Shown: positions 8,692 to 39,010 of the stretch, in pieces
Numbering within the stretch: position 1 is the stretch's first letter
Layout: each line of letters starts with the position of its first letter
The notes under the pieces: model-generated
The model's database searches: none
What the model was told of the DNA's origin: nothing
The model's input: only the letters and a program-made list of their open reading frames with translations
Source: Octopus sinensis
Taxonomy: Eukaryota
Length of the DNA: 64,000 bases
Direction: 5' to 3'
NCBI RefSeq assembly: GCF_006345805.1
Contig: NC_043016.1
Coordinates: forward strand, 10,788,001 to 10,852,000
Position numbers and translations under genes: made by a program

Positions 8692-9009
8692 ATATGTATA
8701 TAATATATATATATATATATACTGCATTAAATGAAGTAACAGTGACAAATGAAAATTCTGTAAACGATAATAATAATTATAAGCTTAAAGCTCATAAATG
8801 TTCACCATGTATTGGCTAAAGAAAATAGTTTAATATTGGGGCCTTGACAGAAAAAAATGGGTATTAGTATTTATGGTTTGATTCCCATGCATACTAATAC
8901 CAACTCTTTTCCGTCGAGATCTTATATGCCCCAGTATTAGACTATTTTCTTTAGTCATTACATAGCAAATGCCTATAAGCTTTAGGTTTATAATAATTAT
9001 TATTATGTC

Positions 9010-11624: not shown

Positions 11625-12307
11625 TATATATAAACTACAATGGGCGGCGAACTGGCAGAAACGTTAGCACGCCGGGCGAAATGTGCAGCCGTATTTCGTC
11701 TGCCGTTACGTTCTGGGTTCAAATTCCGCCGATGTCGACTTTGCCTTTCATCCTTTCGGGGTCGATAAATTAAGTACCAGTTACACACTGGGGTCGATAT
11801 AATCGACTTAATCTGTTTGTCCCCTCTGTGTTTAGCCCCTTGTGGGCAGTAAAGAAATATATATATAAACTACAATACTTATGTGAAAATTACTTGTTTT
11901 CGTACAGTATTTTAATTTCAAAAAGTAAAATAAATAATTAAATGTGGAGGTTGGACTTCTACATGCAGCTAAGTACTATTGTGCAAGAAATGAGATCTAA
12001 TTCATTACCAACTGATAATAATGACTGTCAATCCCATCAAGGGCATATTCGCAAACGAGCACAGCCATCTTGAATAAATTACTGAATTTTTCAATGCATT
12101 GGCTTAATGTGTATTAAGACATACATCATGTCATTGTTGTTTGACAGTATATGAGATGACCTGGTGTCAAGCAACCAGGAGGTCATCTCATACTGAGAAG
12201 TGTGATGAAAATCGTTCCAGCAATGTCCATTCTGTGTATCGCTGCCCCCACACCCCTTCAGATATTGTGTATCTAGAATAGATATTCTTTATATCTCCCG
12301 GGTGGGA

Positions 12308-12496
12308 GATGGGCTGAATCCTGGAAGTACTGCAATACCAGGCGAACCCGTGGCAAAGGCGGAGCAAGCCCCTAACACTTCGCCTCGTTCTAAAAATCAG
12401 TTTAATATCGATGGCCCCAAATAGGGACCGTATCAGATATTAAGCTGATAAGAACAGATACTACACTTTGATCTTAACCAAAAGGCCGAGAAGCGT
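12308..12496 (-). ncRNA. U2: U2 snRNA, full-length copy (variant or retropseudogene)
   Basis: Minus strand reads CGCTTCTCGGCCTTTTGGTTAAGATCAAAGTGTAGTATCTGTTCTTATCAGCTTAATATCTGATACG..., with branch-pairing GTAGTA, Sm-like GATTTTTAG and stem-loop IV CTGGTATTGCAGTACTTCCAG. Confidence 0.93.
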
Positions 12497-13145
12497 GTAC
12501 ATTTTCTTTTAATAAATGATAGGATATAGTTTGAGAGAGATTTGGTTGTTATTTCTAACAGGTAGATCTTTCATGTAGAGACTTTAACAGTCATTATGTT
12601 GTTCCCTCATCATCATCATAATTTAATGTCCATTTTCCATGCTGGCATGGGTTGGACAGTTTGACAAGAGCTGGCAAGCTACACCAGGTTCCAGTTACCT
12701 CTTTTGGCATGATTTCTATGGCTGGATGGCCTTCCTAAAGCCAACCATCTTACGGAGTGAATGGAGCACTTTTTATGTGGCACCAGCACCAGTGCTTTTT
12801 ATTTGGCATCAGCACAGGTACTTTCTACATGGCACCAGTACAGGTGCTTTTTACATGGCGCCATCATAGATGCTCTTTATGTAGTATCAGCACCAGTGGG
12901 GGTCACCAAGTAGCTTGCGAGAAAAAGGTTTCTCGGCTGAGAAGGGGAGTGGAACCAAAAGAAATGACTGCGTGCCAGGCAAGAGGTTTATACCAAAATC
13001 AATTTACTGTTGAGTGTTCGTGGATGCATCACTGTAAAATTCTTCACTTACCAATTATTAAACAAATAAATATTCAGTTATGCAAATACCATCTGACTAA
13101 CAAACAAATACAAATACAAATACAAAAATACATTTGTATCTAAAT

Positions 13146-13332: not shown

Positions 13333-13465
13333 ATCTAAATCAATAAAAATTGAAATGAAAAAAGAAACACCAAAAAATATCAACAGAGACAAAATAATAT
13401 TACAAAATGTAAAATTTTTTTTAAAAAATCAATAAATAGTTATATCTTTGAAGAATTAAACTCAC

Positions 13466-13712
13466 CTTCAATGTTGACTTTGCATTTTTGCTATCAACTT
13501 TATCAAAGTATTCAAATATCTGCCTATATAGTGTGTTCTTGCGAATCTTGTCGTCATCAGGAGGCAAATAGTTCCGAACTGGTGGACCGATGTCTTCATA
13601 TAATAACTGTATGATACGCAAGGCTACTCGGCGTACGTCTTCGGAACTATGATGGAGACAAGCAACGGTGCAGAAGTTCATAATATCTACAACAGCCATT
13701 CCTGGTGCATTA
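13466..13712 (-). CDS. CEP104: CEP104-like exon (end of TOG domain)
   Basis: tttttcag|T then NAPGMAVVDIMNFCTVACLHHSSEDVRRVALRIIQLLYEDIGPPVRNYLPPDDDKIRKNTLYRQIFEYFDKVDSKNAKSTLK|gtgagt. The YLPPDD..RKN.LY..IF..F.K.D motif is characteristic of CEP104. 247 nt, phase 2-0. Confidence 0.92.
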
Positions 13713-13879
13713 CTGAAAAATTTCAACATCAAAACGGAGATAAAATATCCTGTGTGTAAAAATTATTAAAAATTGTATTTATCAATTATGGAAATGTATT
13801 AAAAATTAAAAAAATTTTTTTTTAATTTAAAAAAAAAAATAATAATGATAATAATATAATAATAATAATAATAATTATT

Positions 13880-16698: not shown

Positions 16699-17861
16699 TA
16701 TAGATATATATATATAATCAGAAAATGGAGAAAACCTTAGATCAACAAGCACATCAATTGAACTATATTTATTGCTTAATATTTAATACAGAACATGGCA
16801 TAACATTTGTGTCACATAATTGTTATGCCATGTTCAATTTATGTCACATAAACGCTATGCCATGTTCTGTATTAAATAATAAGCCATAAATGTGGTCCAA
16901 TTGATGTTCTTGTTGATCTGAGGTTTTCTCCTTTTTCTGATTATTTGTATTTGTTTCCTGATAAACTTTTGTTTATTCTGTTATTACCTGTACTCTACGA
17001 GCATAGCGTACCTGCATACCCATGCCCTGAAATAACATGGATAACAGATACAGATATTATAATTGCTAACTCTGCTTACATTTATATATATATAGGAGTG
17101 GCTGTGTGGTAAGTAGCTTGCTTACCAACCACATGGTTCCAGGTTCAGTTCCACTGTGGGGCACTTTGGGCAAGTGTCTTCTACTATATCCTCGGGCCAA
17201 CTAAAGCCTTGTGAGTGGATTTGGTAGACGGAAACTGAAAGAAGCCCATCATATATATGTGTGTGTGTCTGTTTGTCTGTGTTTGTCCCCACCCCACCTA
17301 CATCACTTGACAACCAATGCTGGTGTGTTTACGTCCCCGTAACTTAGCGGTTTGGCAAAAGAGACCGATGGAATAAGTATTAAGCTTACAAAGAATAAAT
17401 CCTGGGATCGATTTGGGTGACTAAAAGCGGTGCTCCTGTATGGCCACATTCAAATGACTGGAACAAGTAAAAGAATAAAAGAATTATAGGTCACTCTGCC
17501 ACAGATTCAGAATATCCAATCCACTTTTTCTGCTACTGGAACAATTAGGATAAACTGTAAATAATGGATAATTATTTGGAAGATTGGGAGATTGGAAGAA
17601 TGGAGTAGCTGAACTCTTATAAAGAGTAGCATATTGGGTGAGACAAGAGGTCGGCAGGAATCACTGAGAGGGCGTTTTGGAGTCTTGTGAAGTACATTGA
17701 TTTTTACTTTCGTTTTGTTAATTATATATTCAACATTTGCCAAGGATATAAAAGTTCCTCACCAAAGTCTGCTCCAGCTCAGCAAATTTGACTGAAAAGT
17801 GACATTTAACAATTCCAGCAACAAATAACAACCAGTAACCGAAATAAATTGTACTAATACC

Positions 17862-18737: not shown

Positions 18738-21700
18738 TCATCATCATCATCATCGTCGTTTAACGTCCGTTCTCCATGCTAGCATGGGTTGGACGGTTCG
18801 ACCGGGGTTCTGGGAAGCCAGAAGGCTGCACCAGGCTCCAGTCTAATCTGGCAATGTTTCTACAGCTGGATGCCCTTCCTAACGCCAACCACTCCGTGAG
18901 TGTAGTGGGTGCTTTTTACGTGCCGCCTGCACAGGTGCCAGGCGGGGCTGGCAACGGCCACGGTCAGATTGGTGTATTTTATGTGCCACCGGCACGGAAG
19001 CCAGTCGAGGCGGTGCTGGCATCGGCCACGAGTCGGATAGTGCTTTTTACGTACCACCAGACCAGGGATCCTGGCTGGTTCAATTCGATTTCGATTTCGC
19101 TTGCCCCAACATGTCTTCACAAGCAAAGGGGGTGGTTGCATGGGTGCCTGTCGTACGGTCGCATTGGAGTATTTTACGTGCCACGGCCACGAGTCGGATA
19201 GTGCTTTTTACGTACCACCAGACCAGGGATCCTGGCTGGTTCAATTCGATTTCGATTTCGCTTGCCCCAACATGTCTTCACAAGCAAAGGGGGTTGGCAT
19301 GGGTGCCTGTCGTACGGTCGCATTGGAGTATTTTACGTGCCACGGCACGAGTCGGATAGTGCTTTTTACGTACCACCAGGCCAGGGATCCTGGCTGGTTC
19401 AATTCGGTTTCGATTTCGATTCGCTTGCCCAAACATGTCTTCGCAAGCATGGGGGGTTGGCATGGGTGTCTGTTGTCGGATGAGGTTCTATATCGACTTC
19501 GCTTGCCTCAACCGGTCTTTGTGTCCAAGGGAGGAAAGGCATTCATAAGTGGGCTGGGCTCACTTGTCCTGCCTGGTCTTCTCACGTACAGAATATTTCC
19601 AAAGGTCTCGGTCTCGGGTCATTTCCTCAGTGAGGCCTAAAGTTCGAAGGTCGTGCTTCACCACCTCGTCCCAGGTTTTCCTGGGTCTACCTCTTCCACG
19701 GGTTCCCTCAACTGCTAGGGATTGGCACTTTCTCACACACCTATCTTCATCCATTCTCGCCACATGACCATACCAGCGCAATCGTCTCTCTTGCACACCA
19801 CAACTGATGCTTCTTAGGTACAACATTTCTCTCAAGGTGCTAACGCTCTGTCGAGTATGTACACTGACATTACACATCCATCGGAGCATACTGGCTTCAT
19901 TCCTCACGAGCTTACGCATGTCCTCAGCAGTCAGGCCCATGTTTCGCTGCCATGTAGCATGGCAGTTCGTACACACGCATCATACAGTCTGCCTTTTACT
20001 CTGAGCGAGAGGCCTTTAGTCACCAGCAGAGGTAAGAGCTCCCTAAACTTTGCCCAGGCTATTCTTATTCTAGCAGTTACACTTTCAGCGCACCCACCCC
20101 CACTACTGACTTGGTCACCTAGATAACGGAAGCTATCAACTACTTCTAGTTTTCCCCTGGAAAGTGACGGAAGTTGTTTTCTCAGATTTTCGGAGGTTAA
20201 TGCTCCCGAGCATCTGCCACATACAAAAGCTATCTTCCCAGTTAGCCTACCTTTGACATTGCTGCACCTCTTATGTGTCATAGCTTACACTGGTACATCT
20301 TATAGAGTTTCTACCTACACCTTTTCTACAGATCGAGCAGGGCCATCTTCCTGAAGATATTTGTGGATTGTCTACCTTTCTACTTATTAGTACTTTGGTT
20401 TTAGCTAGGTTGACTCTAAGGCCCCTTGATTCTAAACCCTCCTTCCACACCTGGAACTTCTCCTCCAGTTCTGATAGTGACTCAGCAATAAGAGCAAGGT
20501 CGTCAGCGTAGAGGAGCTCCCAGGGACAGCCTGTCTTGAATTCCTCCGTAATTGCCTGGAGTAGTATATGATAAATAGGAGGGGGCTGAGTACTGAACCC
20601 TGGTGGACCCCAACCTCTACTTTGAATTCTTCTGTGTACATGTTGCCAACCCTAACCTTACTTACGGCATCTCTGTACATGGCTTGCACAGTCCTCACCA
20701 GCCATTCATCTATCCCTAGTTCCTCATTGACCACAAGATAAGGGATCGGGGGACCCTATCAAAAGCTTTCTCCATGTCAACGAAAGCCAGGTACAGGGGC
20801 TTATCTTTGGCTAGGTATTTCTCCTGCAGCTGCCTTACCAGGAATATAGCATCAGTGGTACTTTTCCCTGGCACGAACCCAAACTGCATCTCATCTAAAC
20901 TAACTCTCTCTCTAATTAGTTGGGCTATGACCCTCTCCGTAACCTTCATTACTTGATCCAACAGCTTGATACCTCTGTAATTGTTGTATCTAGGCATCAC
21001 CTTTACCTTTGTAGCAGTTGACTAGTATGCTGCTGCACCAGTCATGGGTATGACTCCTTCGTGTATCACCTGGTTGACTATACGGGTGACTAGGTTATAG
21101 CCGACACTGCCAGATATTTTGAGCATCTCTGCAGTAATTCCTGATGGGCCTGGGGCTTTCCCTGTCTTCATGCTTCTAATTGCCTTAGCTACCACGGAAC
21201 TATCAACTCGGATAGCTGGTCCCTCTGTAGGGTCAACATTCGGCAGACTCTCTTATCCCATTCATTTTCCTCATTCAGTAACCTTTCATAGTGGCGTCTC
21301 CAAGCTTCTCTCTTTGCATCCTCATTTAGCGCAAGTGAACCATCCTCCATGCGAACACATTTCTCTCCTACCACATCACGATTCTCTCTCACACACTGTC
21401 TTGCAACACGAAATACCTCAAGTCTTTCATCCTCACGGCGCAGGACATTGGCAAATTTTCTCTTATCTGCTTCCCCTCTGGCTAGATAGACCCGTCTCCT
21501 AGCTTCCCTTCTGGCAGTCTGATACCCTTCCCTGCTACCACCGTTCTTCCAGGCCTTCCAAGCCTGTTTCTTTTGTCTAATAGCCCTGTCAACAATATTG
21601 TTCCACCACCACGTTATTTTGGGTCTTAAGGGGACTTTGCACCAGCCACAGATCTGGTCACGGCTTTCAGCAGGTTGTCCTCAGAAACGTCCTCCAGTTG

Positions 21701-22237
21701 TCTTCTACCCATGTGTAGCTATACCCCCTTCCACTTCGTCAAAGGCTTCAAGTAACATATCTCTAATCTCTGTCCATTCGCAGGGGCTTTAAGCTTCCAG
21801 ACCCTTCTTCTCCATGTGGTCGTCTTCTAGTCGCCCTCTTAGTCCTGATCCTAAAGTCACTAACTACCAGTCTATGTTGTGGGGGTGCATTCTTGCCTGG
21901 GAAGGTTTTGGCATTTATAAGCAGCCATCTTTCCCTTTTTCTGGCAAGGATGTAGTCGATTTGGCTAGTATGCCGGCGCCCGATCGGTAGGTGACCAGGT
22001 GGCTTGTTGGTTTCCTGAAGTTAGTGTTGCAGACCATAAGACTATTCGCATCGCAGAACTCCAGCAGCCTGGTTCCCTCCTCGTTGCGGGAACCATAACC
22101 GTAGCCTCCATGTACGCCATGGAAGCCCCCAGCATGTCGTCCAACATGCCCATTGAAATCACCAGCCACAAAGAGAAGGTCCCTGTCGTTCGTCGATGAA
22201 TCACCAGCCACAAAGAGAAGGTCCCTGTCGTTCGACG
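18738..22237 (-). mobile_element. RTE-clade LINE, 5'-truncated, young
   Basis: APE motifs GDFNGHVG, NEEGTRLLEFC, NTNFRK; RT motifs NYRGIKLLDQ, QFGFVPGKST, FVDMEKAFDRV, GVHQGSVLSPLLF, YADD; C-terminal RLRWYGHVARM..RGRGRPRKTW; (GAT)n tail at 18738-18757. Confidence 0.95.
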
Positions 22238-22561
22238 ATGTATGTGTGTATGTATATGTGGGTATGTATGTATGTATGTGTATGTATGTATATGCGTGTG
22301 TGTGCATGTGTATGTATGTATTCATTTATTTGCATGTGTATGTATGTATTTGTGTGAGTGTGTGTGTGTATGTATGTATCTGTGTGTGTGTGCATGTATG
22401 TATTTGTGTGAGTGTGTGTATGCATGTATTTATTTGTATGTGAGTGTGTGTATGTATGTATGTATTATGCATGCATGTATATGAAACAAACATTAAACTT
22501 TTAAAATATGCATTTTTAAAGAAAATATTGCAAATATGCAATTTTGCTTTTTCATACTTAC

Positions 22562-22627: not shown

Positions 22628-22681
22628 CTGGAAAGAAATATATATTCTCATATATGCACACACACATATATATATGAATAT

Positions 22682-22717
<36 letters not shown>

Positions 22718-23147
22718 GACAGACAGACAGATAGATAGACAGACATGCATATATACATGCATATGATATACAAGAAGGTGCTCAAAAATTCCTGGCTTTA
22801 AAGGTATCGCGAAAGGCCTGGTTGAAGGCCCAACCTTGAGTTCTTCTACAAGACTTAGAAAAACTTCTACAAGGCTTAGAAAAAGGTGTGAACTAGCTAG
22901 TTCACTCTTTGACCTATCAACTTCAAGATGGTATGATTTTAATATATTCAGCCTTCTGGCCTCATCTTGAGGCCCTGTTCTTTTCTCTTCCCTTCATTTA
23001 TTTTATTTTATTTTACATATATATATACTACGGAGATGTACTTCCATAGCAAGTGATTTGATCTGAGATTGTGTGCCGAAACAAAGACAATTGCAGCGTA
23101 GAAGGTGTTTATAAGCCATTTAAGAAACACACAAAAGCCGTTCAATT

Positions 23148-23198
23148 TTTGTCAGTGAACAGGTCGCGGTCTTAAAGCGATGAAAATATTTTGACAAA
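23148..23198 (+). ncRNA. Hammerhead-like motif with G3:C8 swapped core
   Basis: tttgtca-GTGAACA-g gtcgc(ggtcttaaa)gcgat-GAAAATATTT-tgacaaa. Stem I is a perfect 7 bp; stem III AATATT is palindromic. Confidence 0.55.
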
Positions 23199-23344
23199 TT
23201 AAACTTAAATGTTGAAGTGAATCGAACGGCTTTTGTGTGTTCATATATATATATATATATATACTTTATTTAAAGCAGCAGAAAATTCAACAAAACCTGT
23301 TACTCTGAGTTTCCCGTTGCCGTTCATCGGACAGTTTTTTCTAG

Positions 23345-23394
23345 CAAAAACTGTCCGATGAACGGCAACGGGAAACTCAGAGTAACAGGTTTTG
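23345..23394 (+). ncRNA. Minimal type I hammerhead motif (mirrored on the minus strand at ~23291-23340)
   Basis: caaaaactgt-CCGATGA-a cg GCAA cg g-GAAAC-tcaga-GTA-acaggttttg. Stem I 9/10 bp, U4C core variant, palindromic stem III. Confidence 0.7.
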
Positions 23395-23549
23395 TTGAAA
23401 TTTCTGCTGCTTTAAATAAAGCATATTACTCTACCACTGGTATTTGAGTACTTTTTTTCCACCTTGTTTCACATTTATGTGTTTACTCCGGTTATATATA
23501 TATATATATATATATAATATAATATATATAATATATATATTATATATAT

Positions 23550-24456
23550 CAAAATGAAATCAAAACAAATCAAATCAAATCAAATCAAAACAAATCAAAT
23601 TAGATGAACATTAATGGAATTGTATCTTGTGGTACCAGTGCCGGTGGCACACAAGAAAACCATCCGAACGTGGCCGTAGCCAGTACCGCACTGACTGGCC
23701 TCCGTGCTGTGGGCACGTAACAAACACCATCCGATCGTGGCCGTTCGCCAACCTCATCTGGCACCTGTGTCGGTTGGCACATAAAAACACCATCCGAAGA
23801 CCTGGCAAGACTAGTCAGGCCATAACCTGTGGCCCCTACTGGGACGTAGTCAGTCCACCTGGCATACCTTCCTTCTTGTGACACTTGTGAAGACCTGTTG
23901 AGGCAAGTGAAAATCAAATCAAATCAAATCAAAACAAATCAAAATGATGAACATCAAGGGGATTTGTATCTTTGTGGTACCAGTGCCAGTGGCACGTGGC
24001 ACACAAGAAAACCATCCGAACGTGGCTGTAGCCAGTACCGCATCGACTGGCCTCCGTGCTGTGGGCACGTAACAAAACCACTGATCGTGGCCGTTTGCCA
24101 GCCTCATCTGGCACCTGTGCGGCGGCACATAAAAAACACCATCCGAGCGTGGCCGTCTGCCAGCCTCGTCTGGCACTGTGTCGGTGGCACATAAAAAACA
24201 CCATCCGAGCATGGCCGTTTGCCAGCCTCGTCTGGCACCTGTGTCGGTGGCACATAAAATCACCCACTACACTCTCGGAGGGGTTGGGCGTTAGGAAGGG
24301 CATCCAGCTGTAGAAACACTGCCAGATCTGACGGGACTGGTGCAGCTTTCGGGCTCCCCAGACCCCAGTGGAAACGTCCAACCCATGCTAGCATGGAAAG
24401 CAGACGTTAAATGATGATGATGATGATGATGAATATATAATATATAATATATTAAT

Positions 24457-24494
<38 letters not shown>

Positions 24495-25791
24495 ATAATA
24501 TAATATATTTATAATATATATATTATATATATAAATATATAATATTATCATCATCAATCAAAATCAAAATCAAAATCAAATCAAATCAAACCAAATAAAA
24601 ATAGATGAACATCAATGGAATTTGTATCCTTGTGGGTGGCACATAAGAAAACCATCCGAACGTGACTGTAGCCAGTACCGCATCGACTGGCCTCGTGCTG
24701 TGGGCACGTAACAAACAACATCCGAGCGTGGCCGTTCGCCAGCCTTGTCTGGCACCTGTGTCGGTGGCACATAAGAAAACACCATCCGAGCGTGGTCGTC
24801 TGCCAGCCTCGTCTGGCACCTGTGTCGGTGGCACATACAAAAAACACATCCGAGCGTGGCCGTCTGCCAGCCTCGTCTGGCACCTGTGTCGGTGGCACAA
24901 AAAAACACCATCCGAGCGTGGCCGTTTGCCAGCCTCGTCTGGCACCTGTGTCGGTGGCACATAAAATCACCCACTACACTCTCGGAGTGGTTGGGTTAGG
25001 AAGGGCATCCAGCTGTAGAAACACTGCCAGATCTGACTGGACTGGTGCAGCTTTCGGGCTCCCCAGACCCCAGTTGAACCGTCCAACCCATGCTAGCATG
25101 GAAAGCAGACGTTAAATGATGATGATGATGATGATGATATATATAATATATAAATATATAATTATATATATAATATATAATATATATAATATATATATTA
25201 TATATAATAATATAGATTATATATAATAGATATATATATTGTATATATATAATATATAATATTATCATCATCAATCAAAATCAAAATCAAAATCAAATCA
25301 AATCAAACAAATAAAAATAGATGAACATCAATGGAATTTGTATCCTTGTGGGTGGCACATAAGAAAACCATCCGAACGTGACTGTAGCCAGTACCGCATC
25401 GACTGGCCTCGTGCTGTGGGCACGTAACAAACAAAATTCCGAGCGTGGCCGTTCGCCAGCCTTGTCTGGCACCTGTGTCCGGTGGCACATAAGAAAACAC
25501 CATCCGAGCGTGGCCGTCTGCCAGCCTCGTCTGGCACCTGTGTCGGTGGCCACATAAAAACACCATCCGAGCGTGGCTGTCTGCCAGCCTCGTCTGGCAC
25601 CTGTGTCGGTGTGGCACATAAAATCACCCACTACACTCTCGGAGTGGTTGGCGTTAGGAAGGGCATCCAGCTGTAGAAACACTGCCAGATCTGACTGGCC
25701 TGGTGCAGCCTTCGAGCTTGCCAGACCCCAGTTGAACCGTCCAACCCATGCTAGCATGGAAAGCGGACGTTAAACGATGATGATGATGATG
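23550..25791 (+). repeat. Tandem copies of the RTE 3' UTR/tail unit separated by (TA)n
   Basis: Units at ~23550-24431, 24556-25137 and 25273-25791, each (AAATC)n ... ~57-bp subrepeats ... GGAAGGGCATCCAGCTGTAGAAAC ... GTTAAA(TGA)n. Confidence 0.85.
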
Positions 25792-26170
25792 ATATATATA
25801 TATTATATAATATATAATATATATAAGATATATATATATATATATAATAATATATAATATATAGATATATATTATATATATATAATATATATATATATAG
25901 ATATAATAGCAATTAAGGACAACTACTTAATAAGGAAAATTAACAAGAAATTGTCAGGTAAGATAGCGTAAAAACCTCATAAGAGAAAAAATTTCGAATA
26001 ATATTTTTATTGAACATATTAATTTATATATAGAGGGCATTATACATACATGCCAGAATGCATTATACATACATGCCAAACGCCTAAGAGGGACAATCAG
26101 TCATTTCTACCAAAAATATTACTAATCCCACCGAATGCAATTTTTCAAAGTAAGACATTTAAAAATATAG

Positions 26171-26214
26171 ACCTGTATCACAGTGATTTCATACTTACGT
26201 AATCATCAGCAGTA
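26171..26214 (-). ncRNA. Minimal type I hammerhead motif at the centre of a long palindrome
   Basis: Minus strand tactg-CTGATGA-t tac GTAA gta t-GAAA-tcactgtg-ATA-caggt. Confidence 0.7.
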
Positions 26215-26398
26215 ATTACGATGATTACGTAAGTATGAAATCACTGTGATACAGGTCTATATTTTAAAAAATGTCTTACTTTGAAAAATTGCATTCGGTG
26301 GGATTAGTAATATTTTTGGTAGTAGAAATGACTGATTGTCCCTCTTAGCGTTTGGCATGTATGTATAATGCATTCTGGCATGTATGTATAATGCCCTC

Positions 26399-26399
<1 letters not shown>

Positions 26400-26431
<32 letters not shown>

Positions 26432-26594
26432 TATTATATATATTATATATAATATAAGATATATATATATATATATATTATAATATTATAATATATATAA
26501 GATATATATTATATATAATAATTATATATTATATATATATATTATATATATTATATATATATATATAATATATAATATATATAAGATATATATT

Positions 26595-26626
<32 letters not shown>

Positions 26627-26829
26627 ATATATATATATATATAATAGATATATATATATATATAATATATAATATATATAAGATATATTATATATATATA
26701 ATATATAGATATATATATAATATAATATATATATATATATATATATAATATATAATATATAATTATATATATATATTATATACATATATATATATATAAT
26801 ATATAATATATAATATATATATATATTAC

Positions 26830-26874
<45 letters not shown>

Positions 26875-26885
26875 TCTATATACAT

Positions 26886-26918
<33 letters not shown>

Positions 26919-26943
26919 TATATATATTATATATATACATTAT

Positions 26944-26976
<33 letters not shown>

Positions 26977-26987
26977 ATATATTATAT

Positions 26988-27034
<47 letters not shown>

Positions 27035-27062
27035 ATATATATATACACATATATATACATAT
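26400..27062. repeat. (TA)n-rich microsatellite
   Basis: About 660 bp of almost pure A/T dinucleotide sequence. Confidence 0.95.
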
Positions 27063-27774
27063 AGAGGCACTGGAATGGCTGTGTATAAATGTTGGCTTCC
27101 CAACCAAATGGTTCTGGGTCCATTCTCGTCGACTAAAGAATTGTGAATCAATTTGGTAGACAAAAACTGAAAGAAGCCTATTGTATATGTATATGCATTT
27201 ATATCTATACCTATGTGTGTCTTTGCATTTGGTTTTTTTCCCCTCACCATTGCTTTAATAACCGGTGTTGGTGTGTTTACATCCCCATAACTTAGCAGTT
27301 GGGAAAAAGACACTGATGGAATAAGTAGCAGGATAAGAGAAATGAGTAAAAGAATAACAAAAGGCCTCAAACAAAAACAAACACATATATCTACACACAC
27401 ATGAACATATAAATATGTGTATTGTGATATACATGTGTGCGTGTGCGTGTGTGTGCACACGCACATGCACGCTCGCATGTGCATATTCAAGTTCAGAGAG
27501 GTTAGAAAAACAATGAAAGACCGGATAATTAAGATGTCACATAAGGTCAGAATAATCTACTTGTCACTTAAAACTATTTATGTCTGAGAGAAAAACTGAA
27601 GGTTTATGTCACCATAAACCACATGTCATCTTGCATGGCTTCTAATATCTTGGAATTAAAATTACTGTGAATGAAAACATAGCAATGCATCTCTTTCATA
27701 ATGCTGAAGAAATCGAGTGAGTTTTTAAACACAAGAAAATATAAGCCAGAGAGTTAATCATATATATATATATA

Positions 27775-28130
27775 GATTGTACGATGCATGTGTGCAAACT
27801 GCCATGCTTCATGGTAGTGAAACATGGGCTGTGACTGCAGAAGACATGCGTAGGCTTGAAAGAAATGAAGCTAGCATGATCCGCTGGATGCGTAATGTCA
27901 GTGTGCACACATGACAGAGTGTAAGCATCCTGAGAGAAATGCTGGACATAAGAAGCATTGAATGTGGTGTGCAAGAGAGAAATTTGCACTGGTATGGTCA
28001 TGTACGATGGATGCTTGAGAAGAGATGCGTGAAGAAGTGCCACTCCCAAACAGTTGAAGGAATAGAAATTGTAGTTGTGATACCTGTGCTGATGGCACGT
28101 AAAAAGCACCATCCAAAAGTGGCCGAAAGA
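27775..28130 (+). mobile_element. RTE LINE fragment
   Basis: RLYDACVQTAMLHGSETWAVTAEDMRRLERNEASMIRWM..RNLHWYGHV. Confidence 0.8.
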
Positions 28131-28149
28131 TGCCATGCGTGTAACAAGA

Positions 28150-28667
28150 TCTTCATCCACGTAAAACGATGTTGTGTGTATGATGGGACTGGGAAGGGAT
28201 TATCCATTATGAATTGCTTGAATGGAACCAAACGGTCAATACAGATGGAATGACTCAACATGGCTATTCAAGAGAAAAGACCTAATCAGTAGCATGGAGT
28301 TCCTATGCTGCATGACAACACCTGCCCTCATATCGCCAATATAACCAAGGAAGCCATTCAAACGTATGGCTGGGAAATGCTGCCCCACTTGCCGTACTCT
28401 CCTGATTTGGCACCAATGGATTTCCACCTCTTTTGATATCTTTCAGATGCTATGCGTGGAGTTTCATTCAATACTGTTGCAGAGTTGAGAGCTTTGTTGG
28501 ATCAATTTTTCAAGTCGAAATCAGGTGATTTCTACCAACGAGGTATTGAAAAGCTTGTTGAATATTAAGAAGAGTTTGTAAACAACAAGGGTGAATACAT
28601 TATTAATTAATTAGTTGTTTTTCATTAAACCTTTTAAAAAATGGCGGGAACTTAGTTGCCAACCCAG
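28150..28667 (+). mobile_element. mariner (DD34D) 3' fragment with TIR
   Basis: LHDNTCPH..HLPYSPDLAPMDFHLF..FYQRGIEKLV..NKGEYII*, followed by a TIR-like ggcgggaacttagttgccaacccag-TA. Confidence 0.85.
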
Positions 28668-29024
28668 TATATATATATGTGTGTGTGTGTTTGTGTGAAC
28701 ATAAGTGTTCGTGTACAAAGACAGAGAAAACCTCCAGAGATGTATTGAATATTTATATATTAGCCTGGAATGTTTTTCTTTTATTCAGCAATTAGAGATT
28801 ATATATTTAAATACGTAATTATTTATCATATAATTGACATTATTTTCAGAGCAATTATTATTATTTTTTTTTAACAATAACTATATTGTTTTCCCCCCAT
28901 TTCTTAAAAATACAACATTTCAAGTGTTTTCATTTCGCTATAGTAATTTTTAAAATATTTTTGGCAATAGATGTCTGTATGCTTTTTTTAAAATTTTTAT
29001 TATTATTATTATTATTAATTATTA

Positions 29025-29065
<41 letters not shown>

Positions 29066-29174
29066 ATGATTACACGACAAATTTGGGCAGAAAAATTAAA
29101 ATAATAACTAAAGCTAAAGAGAAGACAGAAATGGGGGGGAAATGTTGAGATAAGATAAACAGCTTAAATTTTCA

Positions 29175-29722
29175 TCTGTCTGTCTGTTTGTTTACCTATT
29201 TATTAGTCTGCCTATGTATCTATCAACCAATTTATCTATCTATCTATTCATCCATCCATCAATTCATCTATCTATTTAGCTGTCTGTCTGTTTATTTATC
29301 CGTCTATCTGTCTGACTGTCTATCAACCCATCCATCGATCTATTTATATGTCTATTAACTCATCCATCCATTTGTCTGTCTATCTATTTATCTGTCTGTC
29401 TGTCGATCTATCTATCTAATCTACACATCTATGTATGTATTCATGTATCTGCCTGTCTATCTATCTATCTATCTATCTGTCTGTGTATCTTTCTACCTAC
29501 CTATACGTCCATCTGTTTGTCTGCATCTGTTTATTTACCTACCTACCTATCTAGCTGTTCATCTATCTATCCACCCATCTATCTATCTATCTACCTACTT
29601 ACCTATCTATCTATCTACCTATCTCCATCCATCCATCTATCTGTCTATCTGCCTACCTGTCTGCCTGCCTGCCTACCTACCTACCTACCTACCTACCTAT
29701 CTATCTGTCTATCTATCTATCC

Positions 29723-29768
<46 letters not shown>

Positions 29769-29784
29769 TTATCTACCTACCTAC

Positions 29785-29819
<35 letters not shown>

Positions 29820-29980
29820 ATCTATCTGTCAGTCTGTCTGTCTGTCTATCTTCCTACCTACCTACCTGTTCATCTGTATATCTATCTATCTCTCTGCATC
29901 TGTCTACCTACCTACATATCTGTTCGTCCATCCGTCCATCCCTCCCTCTCTCCATCTGTCTGTCTATTCATCCATTTAAC
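29175..29980. repeat. (TCTA/TCTG/CCTA)n compound microsatellite
   Basis: Seen directly in the sequence. Confidence 0.95.
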
Positions 29981-31047
29981 TATTTATTTCAAGATAAAGT
30001 CGTCATGTTAGTCACTGTTGCTGCTTGGTATCATGAATCAAGCTGGCTGTGTGCGGCTATAACAGGAACAAAATTCATGACCATTTAACTATATATTTAT
30101 CTTCGGGAAGGCTAAACATTATACATACATAAATTATCCCATACACACTAGCAACTAGACTTAGGATATTGAGATTGACTTTCATACTGTCTGGATTCTG
30201 CAGGCATTAACGGCTTATTTAAGAGATAAAAAAGAATTGGTCTTGAATGAAAATCAAGATGTATGTTTATCTAAATTTACACACATTTCTGACTTGCTTG
30301 TTGCAAAAACTGAAATAATGTCTCTTTAACTGTGCTTACTCAGCCATTTGTTATTTTGGCAGTAAAAGACAAAAAGCTATGAGTTTGCTCCATCTTACTG
30401 AAGCTTTGTCTTTGATTTGTGGCGGTGAGAGGTGAAGAAATTTTGAGTTCATGGTATTAAATAGAGAAGAGTATTGGAAAAATGTGATTTTCATAACACA
30501 GCCAGGCAAGGACCAAAAATCATGTATGGCTTTCTATTGGGTCTCTGAAGCCCTGTGGTTTCCCTGGCCTGCTTGGCAAGAGCTTTGGCGTGTGTTTCCC
30601 TCAGTTGCCCTCAACACTCTGTGCATAGATGTTCACAGATACTGCTTATCAACAAGAAAAAGTATGTGAATCTCAAGGACATTCATTTTTGTTCTAACCG
30701 TGGCTTCATCTCCTGCAGGACACTTGGTTGATAAAGGAGGTGTTTGCATTAAGAATGCATGCATGTACTGAATGTGAGCAGCCATGTATGTATGCAGTGC
30801 TGAATTGACCATTAAGCAAAATAAGCATGTTTTTAGGGCATTAAGAGAAAAAGGGGCACCACAGAAATGGTAAATGGCTTACAGCACAAAAGAAATCACT
30901 TTAAACTTGCTAAAATAATATTCTGGATGCCTTAACTCCACTAAGTATAGTTTTACATAAAATTAATTTTAACGATATCATCAAGGACTTTGCAAGTAAA
31001 ATAAAAATGGAGAAAACTTTTCAAATATAAATAAAATGGAAGCATAA

Positions 31048-33000
31048 AATGATGATGATGACGATTGTAGTGGTGGTGGTGGTGGTGGTAGTGGTGATAA
31101 TGATGATGATGATGGTGCTGGTGCTGGTGACGATGATTGTGATAATGAGGATGATGATGATGATGATGATGATGACAGTGGTGATGTTATGATGGTGGTG
31201 GTGGTGATGGTGATGATTGTAATGGCGATGAAAATAATGATAATTGTGGTGGTAATGACGATGACAATGATGATGACAATGGTGAGGTGGTGGCGATGAT
31301 GGAAATGATGATGATGAAGATGGAAGTGGTGTTACAATGGTGGTTGATGACAACAACAATGATGATGGCGATCATGATGACGACGATGGATGATGAACAA
31401 CGATGACGACGATGACGATGATGAAGAACAATGATGGTGATGATGAATACCATATCCTGATATTGTGTGGAGAGAATGGATGATCCCTTCTGACAGGTCA
31501 CACAAGTATGAATGTCAGTGTAGCTTCTCATGCTAAGCCTGCTCTCTTCTAAACAGGTGGTTGTAAGGTTGCCTCGGTGTAACGATCAGTACAACAACAA
31601 CAATACAGTTTAAAGCAGAGACGCAGGTTCTGAATTCGCACACCAGTGATGTCACAATGCGTTCACTGCTGCTGCTGCGTCTACTGTTACGTAAGACGTG
31701 CATGTGAGAGTGCGTGCGTGCGTGCGTGCACGTGTGCATGCATATGCGTGGGTGCGCATGCGTGTGTGTGAGAGTATTTTTGTGGAGGATTTTTTTTTTA
31801 TTGTTTTCTTTTGCCGAGCAGTGGTGATGGTGGGGGGGGGATGGGGGTATAGTGATCCATTGGGAAGAAAAGAGAGAATGATGGTGATGATGATGATGAT
31901 GATGAGTGGTGATGTTATGATGGTGGTGATGGCAGTGATGATGATGATGACGACGACGATGACAATGACGATGATGACAATGATGATGATGATGATGACG
32001 ACGATGGTGCATTCAACAAAATGACTTAATATCTGTCTCTTGCTGTGCGTGTGTGCATGCTTGTATATGTGTGCGTGTGCATGTGTGAGCATACATGCGT
32101 GTGTGAGAGCATTTCAGTGGGGAGTTTTTTGTCAGGTTTTTTTTTACAGGGTGTGTATGGGGTGGGGTGGGGGGGAGCATAGCAGTCCCTTGTCAAGAAA
32201 AGATAGCATGAGCTGACTCTAGCACAAGCAAGGATCAAAATAACTTAATATCTGTCTCTTTCTGTGCTTTGCTCTTTCTTTCTCTCTGTATATGTGTGTG
32301 TGTGTGTGTGTGCATGCATGTGTGCATATGTATGTGTGTGCGTATGTGTACATATGTGTGTACGGGTATGGTGTGTGTGTGTGTGAGTATGCATGAGTGT
32401 GTAAGTTTGTGTGTGTGTGTATGTGCGTGGTGTGAGCTAGGTGTGTGAGTGTATGTGCATGTATGTGTGTATGGTGTGTGTGTGTGTGTGAGTGTTTATG
32501 TGTGTGTATGTGTATGGTGTGTGCAAGTGTCTATGTGTGTATATGTGTGAGTGTGTAAGTTTGTGTGTATGTGTGTGGTGTGAGCTAGGTGTGTGAGTGT
32601 GTGTGCATGTATGTGTGTATGGTGTGAGTGTGTGTGTGTGAGTGTTTATGTGTGTGTATGTGTATGGTGTGTGCAAGTGTCTATGTGTGTATATGTGTGA
32701 GTGTGTAAGTTTGTGTGTATGTGTGTGGTGTGAGCTAGGTGTGTGAGTGTGTGTGCATGTATGTGTGTATGGTGTGAGTGTGTGTGTATGTTTGTGTGTG
32801 TGATGTGAGTGTAGGTGTGTGAGTGTGTGTATATGTAAGAGTATGTGTATGTTTGCATATGTATGTGCATGTGTGTGTGTACATGAGAGTGTGTGTATAT
32901 GTGTGCATACACGTGATTGTGTGCATGCATGCATGTATGCACAAGCATGCATGCATGCATGCATGTGCATGCAAGCGTGTGTGCATGTGTGTTTGAGAGT
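31048..33000. repeat. (GAT/GGT)n and (TG)n compound microsatellite block with ~150-bp higher-order units
   Basis: gagctagg recurs at 32434, 32582 and 32732; acttaatatctgtctct recurs at ~32024 and ~32243. Confidence 0.9.
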
Positions 33001-34604
33001 ATTTCAGTGTAGTTTGGTGGAGCAGACACAGAAACTATTATTCTCCAAATTATGGAAGAGTCATAACAAATTTTTTTTTTGGGGGGGGGTTGTAATATGT
33101 CCTCTAAAATAGTTAATTGAATAGCATTGGCTGTATGGGGCAGAGAATTTGGTTAAAATATCCATGACCCACAAACAGGGATACTCATCATCATCATTTA
33201 GCGTCTGCTTTCCATGCTAGCACTGGTTGGACGGTTCAACCGGGATCTGGCAAACCAGAAGGCTGCACCAGGGTCCAATCTGATCTGACAATGTTTCTAC
33301 AGCTGGATGCCCTTCCTAACGCCAACCACTCCGAGAGTGTAGTGGGTGCTTTTTACGTGCCACCGGCACAGGTGCCAGACGGGACTGGCAAACGGGCACG
33401 GTCGGATGGTGCTTTTTACGTGCCACCGGCACGGAGGATCGTTGGTGTGGCGCTGGCAACAGTCACGTTCGAAAAGTTTGCTTACGTGCCACCAGCACTG
33501 GTATCACAGCTGCAATTACCATTAATGTTGATCGATTTCGATTTTGAAATTCAAATTCTAAGGAAAGAGAAGACGGGCCAACTCTATCTGCATAGCAAGA
33601 TAACTTAATCTTTACTCTCTCTCTCTCTGCTTCTTTCTTTCTTCTCTCTTCTTTCTCTCTCTGTCTCTCCCTCTCTCTCTCTCTGTAAATATATGTGTGT
33701 GTGTGTGTGTGTGTGCACATGTGTTTGTGCATGCATGTATGTGTACATGTGTATGCATGTGTGTATGCGTGAGTGTAGTAAAGGCAGATGGCTTAGTGGT
33801 TAGGGTTATGCAGCTCGTGGTCGTAAGGTCATCAGTTCAATTCCTGGTGGTGCGTTGTGTCCTTGAGCAAGACACTTTATTTCCTGTTGCTTCAGTCCAC
33901 TCAGCTGGCAAAAATGAGCTGTACCAGTAATTCAAAAGGTGCCATTAATTTCAACTGAAACACTCACTGTTATAACCAATGGGGAGCCAAGCCATGTGTG
34001 TGTGTGCGTGCATTTAAGTTTACAAGCAAGAGGACAAGTGTTCAATACAAACAAAAGTAGTGTGTATTTATTTATTGGGAGTGATGAGAATACTTTTGTC
34101 AGTTTTGCAAATGTTTTTGCTTACTTAACTAATGAGATGTTATGTGGAACAGGATAACAAAGAATAATATTCTTTCTTACTCTAGGCACAAAACCCAGAA
34201 TTTTGGGGGAGGGATGAAAGGCGAAGTCGACCTCGACGGAATTTAAACTCAGAACATAAAGACAGATGAAGAGAGAGTAATATTAATATAGTATTCGAGC
34301 AGAGTGCTATTCTGCAGCAAATTGGCAGGTAAACAAAGCTTACACACTATGTATGTGTGACCAATAATGTTTACATTATTGGAGCTGCTTTTAATAAAAA
34401 ATTTTATTTATTAAAAATGCCGGTAGCACGTGAAGAAGCTTTCGAGCAAAGTTGTTGCCAGTGCCTCTGGACTGGCTCCTGTGCAGGTGGCACATAAAAA
34501 ACACCATTTGAGCATGGCTGTTGCCAGTACCACCTGACTGGCCCTTGTGCCAGTGGCATGTAAAAGCACCCACTACACTCTCGGAGCGATTGGCGTTAGG
34601 AAAC

Positions 34605-35380
34605 ATATCACCAGTATCAAAGCGTAAAAAGCATTCTAAACGCTCTGAAATCATTAAAACACCTGAATTTGCCCAGCAACTTCAACAGACCATTGATTAC
34701 AATCCCAGAAAGTCCATGAGGTCAATTGCAAAAGATCTCCATGTGTCAGAAGGAACAGTCAGAAATGTTATTCGCAAAGACATCAGATATAAGTCTTACA
34801 TGATGAGGAAAGGTCAATCTGTCAGAAAAAGCAAAAGAAAATCACTACATCAGATCTAAAAGGCTCTTAAATAAACTGAAAAATCCAGCAGAAGAAGATT
34901 TGATTTGGTTTTTCACAAACAAGAAAAACTTCGACCAAGATCAAAAAGTTAACAAGAAATGACAGATGGTTATGTGCAGACTCTTCTGAAGTTCCAAGTG
35001 TTATGCATATAAAATTTCTTGCAACTGTTATGGTTTTAGGGGTTGTCAGTAATGAAGGACATGTGATGCCTCCTTACCTCTTTCCACAAGGCCTTAGAGT
35101 TAACTCAGCCATCTACATTGATGTCCTTGAAATAATTGTTAAGCCCTGGATAGACAGTGTATGCAATGGAAGGACATATGTGTTTCAGTAAGACTCCACA
35201 CTATTACACATGACTCTAGTAACACAGGAATGGATGGCTGAAAAATTTCATGATCACATAATCCCTAACAGTTGGCCTCCTAATTTTCCAGATCTCAATC
35301 CATTTGACTATTACATGTGGAGCATTGTTGAGAGAGAGAGGTCAGTGAACACGCCCATAACACCAAAGATTCTATGAAAG
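34605..35380 (+). mobile_element. Tc1/mariner (DD37D-like) transposase fragment
   Basis: NPRKSMRSIAKDLHVSEGTVR (HTH), VMVLGVVSNEGHVMPP, YVFQ*DS, WPPNFPDLNPFDYYMW. Confidence 0.85.
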
Positions 35381-35837
35381 GGCAGAAGAGCTCATGAGCA
35401 GTCAATGGCCATCCAACAGTATGTGTACATGTGTATGTATGCATGTATGTATGCATGTATGTATGTGCAGGAACATGGAAATACCTGGATTGGTGTCCAG
35501 GTGTGTGGTTGGTCCACTGGGAGTGGGGGGAGGCTCCTCTGTTGTTGTCACAACATCTCTCTGGGAGAGGGAAACTCAGAGAAAATTTGCAACACTGACA
35601 ATATTCAATGATGTAGACTAGTTCTTCTTTTCAAGTTTATGTTGTCCATATTCAGAGAGTGGGATTGGATCTGTGCAAATTGCTTCCTTTCTATAAAAAA
35701 CATCATGTACAGACATTACTTGCAAAAAATTACCTATCATAAAATTGGCTGGTTGTAGCCTTCGCATGGTTGGGGTTTTCGATTAGGCAATGACAATACT
35801 TGGACATGAGTTTGCAGCTACCATATATATATATATA

Positions 35838-36142
35838 TCACGTGATCACGTGACCAACCAGACCATCAGATGTAGTTACACATCGCTGGTCACAATGCGT
35901 TTGCATTGTTTTAGCCTTCGAATGACGCCACCCCGCTGGCTAAGCGAGCAGGCCGACAGAAGAAAGAGTGGGAGAAAGAGTGGTGAAAGAGTGCAGCAGG
36001 GATCACCACCCCCTGCCGGAGCCTCATGGAGCTTTAGGTGTTTTTGCTCAATAAACACTCACAACGCCCGGTCTAGGAATCGAAACCGCGATCCTGCAAC
36101 TGCGAGTCCGCTGGCCTAACCACTAGGCCATTGCGCCTCCAC
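35838..36142 (-). mobile_element. tRNA-derived SINE family D
   Basis: Head GGAGGCGCAATGGCCTAGTGGTTAGG..GGTTTCGATTCC; related copy at 4555-4850(+). Confidence 0.75.
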
Positions 36143-36233
36143 ATATATATATTTGTATGTATATGATATTTTTTTTAAAGAATGAATAGATGTTGGTTAA
36201 AAAATAAAATATGTACACAACCAGTTTACTTAC

Positions 36234-37233: not shown

Positions 37234-39010
37234 TCATCATCATCATCATTTAGCGGCTGTGAAGCCAGAAGGCTGCACCAGGCTCCAGTCTGATCTGGCA
37301 GTGTTTCTACGGCTGGATGCCCTTCCTAACGCCAACCACTCCACGAGTGTAGTGGGTGCTTTTTACGTGTCACCGGCATGGAGGCCAGATAGGGCGGCGC
37401 TGGCAATGGCCACGAATGGATGGTGCTTTTTACGTGTCACCGGCACGGAGGCCAGTCGGGGCGGCGCTGGCAATGGCCACGATCGGATGGTTCTCTTACT
37501 TATCACCAGCACTGGTATCACAGCCGCAATTTCCATTGATGTTGATTGACATTGATTTTGGTTCTGCTTTCTGATATCTGATTTGATTTTGATTTTGATT
37601 TTGATTTTCACTTGCCTCAACGGGTCTTCACAAGTGGAGTTTTGTGTCCCAAGAAGGAAAGGTATGTATAAGTCGACTGGCTACATACCAGGTAGAGGCC
37701 ACGGGTTATGGTCTCACTAGTCTTGCCAGGTCTTCTCACGCACAGCATACTTCCATAGGTCTCGGTCTCTAGTCATTTCCTTGGTGAGACCTAAAGTGCG
37801 AAGGTCGTGCTTCACCACCTCGTCCCAGCTTTTCCTGGGTCTACCCACCTCTTCACAGGTTCCCTCAACTGCTAGGGTGTGGCACTTTTGCACACAACTA
37901 TCTTCAGCCATTCTCATCACATACCATACCACGCAAACGTCTCTCTTGCACACCACAATTGATGCTTCTTAGGTCCAACTTTTCTCTCAAGGTACTTACA
38001 CTCTGTCGATTATGAACATTGACATTACACATCCATCGGAGCAATACTGGCTTCATTTCTTGCGAGCTTACGCATATCCTCAGCAGTCACGGCCCATGTT
38101 TCACTACCATGTAGCATGGCTGTACGTACACATGCATCATACAGTCTGCCTTTTACTCTGAGCGAGAGGCCTTTTGTCACCAGCAGGGGTAAGAGCTCTC
38201 TGAACTTTGCCCAGGCTATTCTTACTCTAGCAGTTACACTTTCAGCACCCCCACCCCCGCAACTGACTTGGTCACCTAGGTAGCGGAAGCTATCAACTAC
38301 TTCTAGTTTGTCTCCCTGGAACGTGGTGGAAGTTGGTCTCTGCACATTTCCAGTGTTTATTGCTCCTGAGCATCTGCCACAGACAAAAACTATTTTCCTA
38401 GTTAGCCTTCCTTTGACATTGCTGCACCTCTTATGTGTCCATAGCTTACACTTGGTGCACCTTATAGTTTTTCTACTTCTACCTACACCCTTTACAGATC
38501 GAGCAGGGCCATCTACCTGAAGTCGTTTGTGATTGGTCTACCTTCCTACTTATTAGGACTTTGGTTTTGGCTCGGTTGATTCTAAGGCCCTTCGATTCTA
38601 ATCCTTGCTTCCACACCTGAAACTTCTCCTCCAGTTCTGATAGTGACTCAGCAATTAGAGCAAGGTCATCAGCATAGAGGAGCTCCCAGGGGCATCCTGT
38701 CGTGAATTCCTCCATTATTGCCTGGAGGACTATGATAAATAGGAAGGCACTGAGGACTGAACCTTGGTGGACCCCAACCTCTACCCGGAATTCTTCACTG
38801 TACTCGTTGCCAACCCTCACCTTACCAGCAGCGTCTCTGTACATGGCTCGCACAGCTCTCACTAACCATTCATCTATCCCTAGTTTCCTCATTGACCACC
38901 AGATAAGGGATCAGGGGACCCTGTCGAAGGCTTTCTCCATGTCAACAAAAGCCAGGTACAGGGGCTTATCTTTGGCTAGGTATTTCTCCTGCTGCTGTCT
39001 TACCAGGAAT
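37234..39010 (-). mobile_element. RTE-clade LINE, 5'-truncated
   Basis: FVDMEKAFDRV, GVHQGSVLS, WELLYADDLAL, FRYLGD, LHGSETW, GRPRKSWDEVV; same family as 18738-22237. Confidence 0.93.

What the first reader, a model, noticed from the sequence alone, without database searches (positions are those of the whole stretch)
26023..26408. ~190-bp-arm palindrome whose turn falls inside a hammerhead core
The minus strand (sense to CEP104) has an intact CUGAUGA (26209-26203), U-UAC(GUAA)GUA-U, GAAA, UCAC-U-GUGA, AUA site and CAGGU. The plus-strand mirror copy starts mid-core (ATGA at 26221). The architecture matches the 23345 motif (short GNRA stem II, 1-nt-centred palindromic stem III) although the sequence is unrelated. 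The left arm extends ~120 bp to (TA)n. Inference: the inversion point sits at the ribozyme, as expected if reverse transcription folds back near the cleaved RNA end.
Basis: partly seen in the sequence, partly recalled or inferred. Interest (0 to 1): 0.72.

Follow-up and report, generated by a model that had tools for sequence, protein, structure and literature searches.

The report
Folded-back end of octopus Penelope retrotransposon
This is a mostly ordinary leftover of a jumping gene in an octopus intron: the last 190 bases of a Penelope-type element, with its small self-cutting RNA motif, were copied and then mirrored during insertion, and the mirror point is not where the RNA cuts itself.

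Summary
The palindrome (arms 192/195 bp, 4 differences, 14-nt loop) and the type I hammerhead are real, in an Octopus CEP104 intron. The sequence belongs to a high-copy family whose other copies continue 5' of the core and extend stem I to 7 bp. Motif architecture, distance to the 3' end and (TA)n flank match Hydra-clade Penelope-like elements (PMC8557442). In metagenome loci the same motif type had a Hydra-type ORF upstream in 15 of 37 structured loci and 0 of 82 others. Head-to-head 5'-truncated copies are a described PLE trait. Turns in related loci are spread from -4 to -115 nt from the core. Best model: target-primed reverse transcription of uncleaved RNA, early stop, microhomology snap-back, joining to (TA)n. 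No ORF links this family itself to the clade. New member of a known kind; a stop hot spot at the ribozyme's 5' edge is not excluded.

The parts
26024..26212 (-). Left arm: 5'-truncated 3' end of the element, stopping 3 nt into the 5' strand of stem I; inferred first cDNA
   Evidence: the family continues beyond 26212 in 13 contigs of X1
26221..26408 (+). Right arm: mirror copy starting at core A6; inferred fold-back copy, ends at an internal TA-rich stretch joined to (TA)n
26213..26220 (.). 8-nt junction filler; its pieces (4 nt direct, 6 nt inverted) match templates within 15 nt in the left arm
   Evidence: the local sequence is itself palindromic, so some matches are expected
26169..26212 (-). 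Type I hammerhead motif of Hydra-PLE architecture; predicted cleavage after AUA between 26176 and 26175; stem I cut to 3 bp at this locus
   Evidence: compared with File S2 of PMC8557442
26177..26187 (-). Palindromic stem III, 1-nt centre; can pair with a second copy (-10.1 kcal/mol duplex)
26032..26077 (.). 23-nt tandem duplication near the element's 3' end, present in both arms
25897..26023 (-). 127-bp unique stretch beyond the left arm, possibly the one-sided 3' 'tail'; holds AATAAA on the minus strand
   Evidence: 3 contigs in 2 other runs carry a like flank; orthology not excluded
26409..27030 (.). Imperfect (TA)n array, inferred target site (end approximate)
22637..36179 (-). CEP104 intron that holds the insertion (bounds approximate, from tblastn)
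23259..23426 (.). Sister palindrome of an unrelated family: whole hammerhead (U4C core) in both arms, centre 12 nt 5' of C3; right copy runs about 63 nt further to (TA)n
   Evidence: 83-84% over 44-46 nt to the hammerhead region of L095 and L077, and L095 has a Hydra-type ORF upstream

Best explanation
A dead, recent insertion of a high-copy Penelope-like element (PLE), probably Hydra clade, reduced to two head-to-head 5'-truncated copies of its 3' end. Shown: palindrome, motif, high-copy family that extends 5' of the turn, intact consensus stem I, template not cleaved at this ribozyme. Inferred: the element's endonuclease nicked (TA)n; reverse transcription of uncleaved RNA ran from the 3' end through the ribozyme and stopped 3 nt into stem I; the cDNA end re-primed on itself through 1-2-nt microhomologies (leaving the 8-nt filler) and copied itself back; the new strand joined (TA)n at an internal TA-rich stretch. 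The turn lies at the ribozyme mainly because the ribozyme sits about 150 nt from the 3' end and these insertions are short. At this locus the ribozyme is probably inactive (3-bp stem I, buried in a 190-bp hairpin). Odds of the parts: PLE-derived about 0.85, Hydra clade about 0.65, snap-back rather than twin priming about 0.65.
For: Family: 1586/473/290/442 contigs laid in 4 of 4 runs; no variant of 2% or more listed in 26165-26212; loose-end variants fall in loops II and III; 13 contigs continue 5' of 26212. Architecture: many Hydra-clade rows of File S2 show CUGAUGAU, a 3-4-bp stem II with tetraloop, UGAA and a 1-nt-centred palindromic stem III; almost all Hydra families target (TA)n. Cleavage site to 3' end is 29-354 nt, median 87, in 24 published rows, against 152 here. 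Hydra-type (CxCX5C) ORF upstream in 15 of 37 structured loci (5 built the profile) and 0 of 82 others. Inverted 5'-truncated copies and palindromic head-to-head junctions are described for PLEs (PMC8557442; PMC3846280). Uncleaved RNA is the main substrate of a PLE in vitro (PMC11167929). cDNA snap-back junctions are described for R2 proteins (PMC11371274). Both arms share T26059 where 98-99.9% of family depth reads G, as expected from one template. The window's other long palindromes also have short spacers.
Against: No PLE ORF in the window and only 30 nt of upstream family sequence seen, so the clade rests on motif, position and target. The target arm has no sequence match to any of the 119 loci, nor did 4 short probes match the supplement of PMC8557442. 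Its triplet is AUA and stem II is AU-rich, whereas the published rows have GUH and mostly GC-rich stems. L105 has arms truncated at -10 and +82, and L063 and L119 have long spacers, which a plain snap-back does not give; L033 and L092 are tail-to-tail. The runs may be other species than the window, which weakens the T26059 argument. Both hammerhead palindromes in the window turn within 15 nt of C3 (crude null p 0.005-0.02, post hoc).
Confidence: 0.75

Rival explanations
1. One reading: the hammerhead cleaves the RNA and reverse transcription folds back at the cleaved 5' end.
For: The turn is within 40 nt of the site; the motif is conserved and has a consensus stem I. Cleavage of precursors is the proposed role of PLE hammerheads (PMC4209133).
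Against: Both arms hold sequence 31-37 nt 5' of the scissile bond. No depth step and no cluster of ends at 26175/26176. No inverted arm ends at the site in the 2 window palindromes or the 5 related head-to-head loci, though the pattern required a core, so pure cleavage-site fold-backs could not be seen. Ribozyme mutants do not change PLE insertion in vitro.
Confidence: 0.04
2. Twin priming: a PLE protein dimer nicks both strands, primes two RNAs, and two truncated cDNAs are end-joined head to head.
For: The anole PLE protein cuts and extends both strands and has two start sites that bracket the tail (PMC11167929). One-sided extensions at 23259-23426 and probably here. Unequal arms in L105. Templated filler also fits end-joining.
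Against: Independent stops should rarely fall 6 nt apart; the window's palindromes have short spacers. Shared rare T26059, although one donor locus would also give it.
Confidence: 0.2
3. The ribozyme's 5' edge is a true stop and junction hot spot, because the folded or dimerised ribozyme or bound PLE protein halts reverse transcription there.
For: 2 of 2 in the window at -3 and -12 nt; L105 at -10, L033 at -5. Stem III self-pairs. The anole hammerhead needs the PLE protein to cleave.
Against: Other turns at -22.5, -47, -81.5 and -115. 2 of 23 copies end within 15 nt, about what a smooth decay of mean 150 nt gives (2.2, hand arithmetic). Selecting for a whole core favours ends just beyond it.
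Confidence: 0.15
4. A MITE-like DNA element that moves as a fixed palindrome into TA, or an assembly or amplification chimera.
For: Long inverted repeats and a TA target; MITEs are annotated in O. vulgaris (PMC13282606).
Against: No strand-switch joint reaches 2% of depth, depth falls to about 0 in the filler, and copies continue linearly past the turn. The arms differ at 4 places, and the window's palindromes span 73-98% identity, unlike chimeras.
Confidence: 0.05

Closest known systems
Hydra-clade Penelope-like elements (Craig et al. 2021, PMC8557442; includes Hydra-1_Obim from Octopus bimaculoides)
   Same: Hammerhead near the 3' end with short stem II, U flanks and 1-nt-centred palindromic stem III; (TA)n target; inverted 5'-truncated copy noted for Penelope-13_HM.
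   Different: Sequence differs from the listed Hydra-1_Obim motif; AUA rather than GUH triplet; AU-rich stem II; 5-bp stem III; ORF not seen.
Minimal PLE hammerheads (Cervera and de la Pena 2014, PMC4209133)
   Same: Type I, unpaired base after A9, palindromic helix III suited to dimers; pairs on opposite strands 100-700 bp apart were noted in Schistosoma.
   Different: No G10.1-C11.1 pair; helix II of 3 bp, not 6-8.
Adineta vaga Penelope inverted pLTRs (Arkhipova et al. 2013, PMC3846280)
   Same: About 200-bp inverted terminal copies, palindromes at head-to-head junctions, one-sided tail, AT-rich targets; self-priming proposed.
   Different: Here no ORF lies between the copies; those authors placed self-priming on an antisense RNA, while cDNA snap-back is favoured here.
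Non-LTR retrozymes (bioRxiv 10.64898/2026.07.22.740005)
   Same: Short non-coding PLE derivatives with a type I hammerhead.
   Different: Retrozymes are head-to-tail tandems with at least two whole ribozymes; this is head-to-head with one truncated and one broken ribozyme.

Membership tests
Hammerhead ribozyme, type I | Core CUGANGA, GAAA, UH in order | tested here: met
   left arm only
Hammerhead ribozyme, type I | Three helices around the core | tested here: inconclusive
   Locus: stem I 3 bp, fold not favoured. Family: 7-bp stem I by hand from the loose end. Rfam HH9 11.3 bits, below the cut-off of 52.
Hammerhead ribozyme, type I | Self-cleavage after NUH | not testable with these tools
   needs an assay
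EN+ Penelope-like element | ORF with telomerase-like RT and GIY-YIG endonuclease | tested here: inconclusive
   None in the window, as expected of a 190-bp remnant; no genome held, so full-length copies could not be sought
EN+ Penelope-like element | 5' truncation with an inverted truncated copy at the 5' end | tested here: met
   trait as
EN+ Penelope-like element | Hammerhead in the terminal repeat near the 3' end | tested here: met
   152 nt from the arm end; published range 29-354
EN+ Penelope-like element | One-sided 3' tail of 30-40 bp | tested here: inconclusive
   127-bp candidate, longer than usual; like flank in 3 contigs of 2 runs
Hydra clade | (TA)n insertion | tested here: met
   not specific, as Naiads also use (TA)n
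Hydra clade | CxCX5C linker, DKT motif, no CCHH in the endonuclease | not testable with these tools
   No ORF for this family; CxCX5C seen only in related loci
Non-LTR retrozyme | At least two head-to-tail units, each with a whole hammerhead | tested here: not met
   (this locus only)
MITE | Many copies of one fixed inverted-repeat unit | tested here: not met
   No recurrent joint; linear continuation past the turn

The most novel reading that the evidence does not exclude
In these elements the hammerhead serves less as a cutter than as a pairing and protein-binding module. Two RNAs dimerise through the palindromic stem III, and the PLE protein dimer copies both or stalls once it has passed the core. 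Head-to-head junctions then pile up at the ribozyme's 5' edge. This would explain why PLEs keep a barely active ribozyme and why they make palindromes, and the thousands of octopus copies would test it directly.
Probability: 0.15. Interest if true: 0.65.

Novelty: new member of a known kind. Interest (0 to 1): 0.27.

Why it matters
As it stands it is a clean example of a known PLE insertion form and marks a high-copy, recently active octopus family that I did not find described in the searches. It shows that the genomic copy came from uncleaved RNA, in line with the in vitro result for the anole element. The role of PLE hammerheads is still called unclear (PMC8557442). A young family with many copies would allow truncation and turn points to be plotted against the ribozyme, a cheap test of that question. 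Such remnants also put perfect 190-bp hairpins into pre-mRNAs of an animal known for heavy A-to-I editing (own knowledge; not tested).

Tried and rejected
No whole genome is held, so the proposed breakpoint plot could not be made for this family. Exact probes from the arm found nothing in metagenome or viral contigs. No other copy of the arm or of the left flank in the window. No RNA holder listed on record: no evidence on expression either way. Read laying listed no joints, but single-copy junctions fall below the 2% filter and 68 loose ends were not shown; the fall in depth towards 26212 is confounded by the edge of the stretch and was not used. The extra C at 26083 seemed to mark two source alleles, but clipped contigs can explain it; not used. 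Rfam miRNA hits over the palindromes are hairpin-shape matches. Pfam named none of five related ORFs; they were assigned by the CxCX5C motif and by eye against File S7 of PMC8557442. Snap-back through cDNA of stem I was considered and rejected: it would leave the core single in the loop, but the core is duplicated. No ORF starts in the target's hammerhead (read by eye). Earlier scan findings: none returned. One paper sought by DOI was not held. A search on cephalopod editing was seen as a listing only.

Full report
Observation. The palindrome is real. Arms 26024-26206 and 26221-26408 align with one substitution and three small indels inside their TA-rich ends, around a 14-nt loop. A descriptor requiring the core and three stems finds only this motif in the window, and 1 of 100 shuffles gave a hit. 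With one mismatch allowed it adds the two copies of the 23345 palindrome, and 0 of 100 shuffles gave three (thresholds set after seeing the motif). Energy gives no support: z 0.3-0.7, forced fold +0.6 kcal/mol, Rfam HH9 at 11.3 bits against a cut-off of 52.

Setting. An exon at 13460-13729 is 97% identical to a protein named CEP104-like of Octopus sinensis (weak Pfam hit). Eight to nine exons map to the minus strand, and the palindrome lies in the intron at about 22637-36179. No whole genome is held.

Family. Laying four runs of contigs on the left arm and loop gave 1586, 473, 290 and 442 contigs and summed depths of 1e5 to 1.4e6. This is not a copy number, but it marks a high-copy repeat in three organism labels; 4 of the 24 listed runs were laid. 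No variant of 2% or more is listed in 26165-26212, but there is also no substitution in 26099-26164, so the core is not shown to be more conserved than its flank. Loose-end variants change loop III and loop II and keep the stems. Thirteen contigs of X1 continue 5' of 26212 with one sequence; its first four letters pair with positions 1.4-1.7 (C-G, G.U, G-C, A-U, by hand), giving a 7-bp stem I. So the window copy is truncated 3 nt into stem I. No strand-switch joint reached 2%, which argues against a fixed palindromic unit but cannot see single-copy junctions.

What it is. File S2 of PMC8557442 lists Hydra-clade PLE hammerheads, many with CUGAUGAU, a 3-4-bp stem II with tetraloop, UGAA and a 1-nt-centred palindromic stem III; almost all these families insert in (TA)n. 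The distance from cleavage site to 3' end is 29-354 nt (median 87) in 24 rows that I took from that table (one row per family, Penelope-18 left out), and 152 nt here. Forty matches in 37 loci passed a structure filter. A profile from five upstream ORF ends with the CxCX5C motif hit upstream of 15 of the 37 loci, five by construction, and 0 of the 82 others. The 23345 motif matches L095 and L077 at 83-84% over 44-46 nt; the target arm matches none, and the window has no PLE ORF. The target is therefore filed as PLE-like by structure, motif, position and target; its clade is likely but not proven.

The turn. Both arms hold stem III, GAAA and stem II and end 37 and 31 nt 5' of the scissile bond. 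A cleaved 3' product would lack all of this, so the template was uncleaved. Depth on the 5' side of the site is close to that on the 3' side in X1, X3 and X5 and about 30% lower in X8. This fits the anole PLE, where uncleaved RNA is the main substrate and ribozyme mutants insert normally (PMC11167929). Is the 5' edge of the ribozyme a hot spot? For: both window palindromes turn within 15 nt of C3 (crude post hoc p 0.005-0.02 for mean lengths of 200-100 nt), L105 joins at -10 and one L033 copy loses homology at -5. Against: head-to-head midpoints at -22.5 (L042), -47 (L009), -81.5 (L119) and -115 (L063) (L042, L009 and L063 failed the structure filter and were added after their palindromes were seen). 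Determinable truncations lie at -5, -6, -18, -46, -55, -82, -112 and -112, with 15 more censored, 13 of them at -46 or beyond; loss of homology can also be subfamily divergence. These are other species and families, few in number, and selected for a whole core. A smooth, short-biased truncation explains them; a modest excess is not excluded.

Mechanism. The left arm is the longer at the centre and may carry the 3' tail, so it is taken as the first cDNA. The 8-nt filler can be built from templates within 15 nt, as expected of repeated microhomology priming. The right arm stops at an internal TA-rich stretch and runs into (TA)n. Both arms share T26059 against G in 98-99.9% of family depth. The window's other long palindromes also have short spacers. 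These points favour cDNA snap-back, a junction class described for R2 proteins (PMC11371274), over twin priming. Twin priming stays possible because the anole protein cuts and extends both strands and L105 has unequal arms. In CEP104 pre-mRNA the region would fold into one hairpin of -305 kcal/mol, so cleavage of the host transcript is unlikely (inference).

Known or new. Inverted 5'-truncated copies (PMC8557442), palindromic head-to-head junctions with self-priming (PMC3846280) and hammerhead pairs on opposite strands (PMC4209133) are in print. O. vulgaris has 31 recently active PLE families (PMC13282606). I found neither this family nor a plot of turns against the ribozyme in the searches; repeat libraries such as Repbase and Dfam could not be searched and may hold it.

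What I saw of each paper. PMC8557442: passages, section 11, supplement parts 1, 2 and 52 of 59 and one term search. PMC11167929: parts 1-2 of 4. PMC4209133: parts 1-2 of 4. PMC3846280, PMC6431247, PMC13282606, PMC11371274: passages only; the supplement of PMC13282606 was listed but not read. Retrozyme preprint: part 1 of 5 and passages; its supplements are closed. Unread supplements may list this family. Hammerhead numbering and the remark on cephalopod editing are own knowledge.

Verdict. New member of a known kind; observation confirmed, cleaved-end mechanism not supported; interest 0.27.

Noticed in passing
window 23259-23426 (and to about 23490): Second hammerhead palindrome, 96% arms, U4C core, stem I up to 8 bp with a bulge. 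Arms end 42 and about 105 nt past the cleavage site. An ATG inside the core opens a 30-codon frame in the right copy (read by eye).
   Followed up: partly
window 47332-47650, 46520-46929, 16708-16950, 8767-9003: Four older palindromes (89, 81, 85 and 73% arms) with short spacers; two touch TA runs. 46520-46929 holds a possible decayed hammerhead with a long stem II, seen by eye only. Six such structures in 64 kb suggest that fold-back insertions are very common in this genome.
   Followed up: partly
window 12304-12497 (-): U2 snRNA gene or copy, 171 bits, full length, just downstream of the last CEP104 exon mapped.
   Followed up: no
window about 23550-25900: Four tandem units of 350-720 bp with 62-65-bp subrepeats; three end in (ATG)n then (TA)n. 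They look like 3' ends of an RTE-type LINE or its SINE (label from own knowledge). The target inserted at or beside the last tail.
   Followed up: no
window 19560-22325 and 38025-38910 (-): Frameshifted LINE-like ORF pieces with reverse-transcriptase-like motifs inside CEP104 introns (named by eye).
   Followed up: no
L033:127-451, L092: Tail-to-tail hammerhead pairs; L033 has a short TA run at the centre, as if two copies entered one (TA)n in opposite directions.
   Followed up: partly
L105: Complete mini-insertion: (TA)n, a 50-nt inverted 3' end, then a sense copy that starts 10 nt 5' of the core.
   Followed up: partly
L039, L012: Two hammerheads in direct tandem 197 and 144 nt apart; L039 has a Hydra-type ORF upstream (pLTR-like or retrozyme-like).
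   Followed up: no
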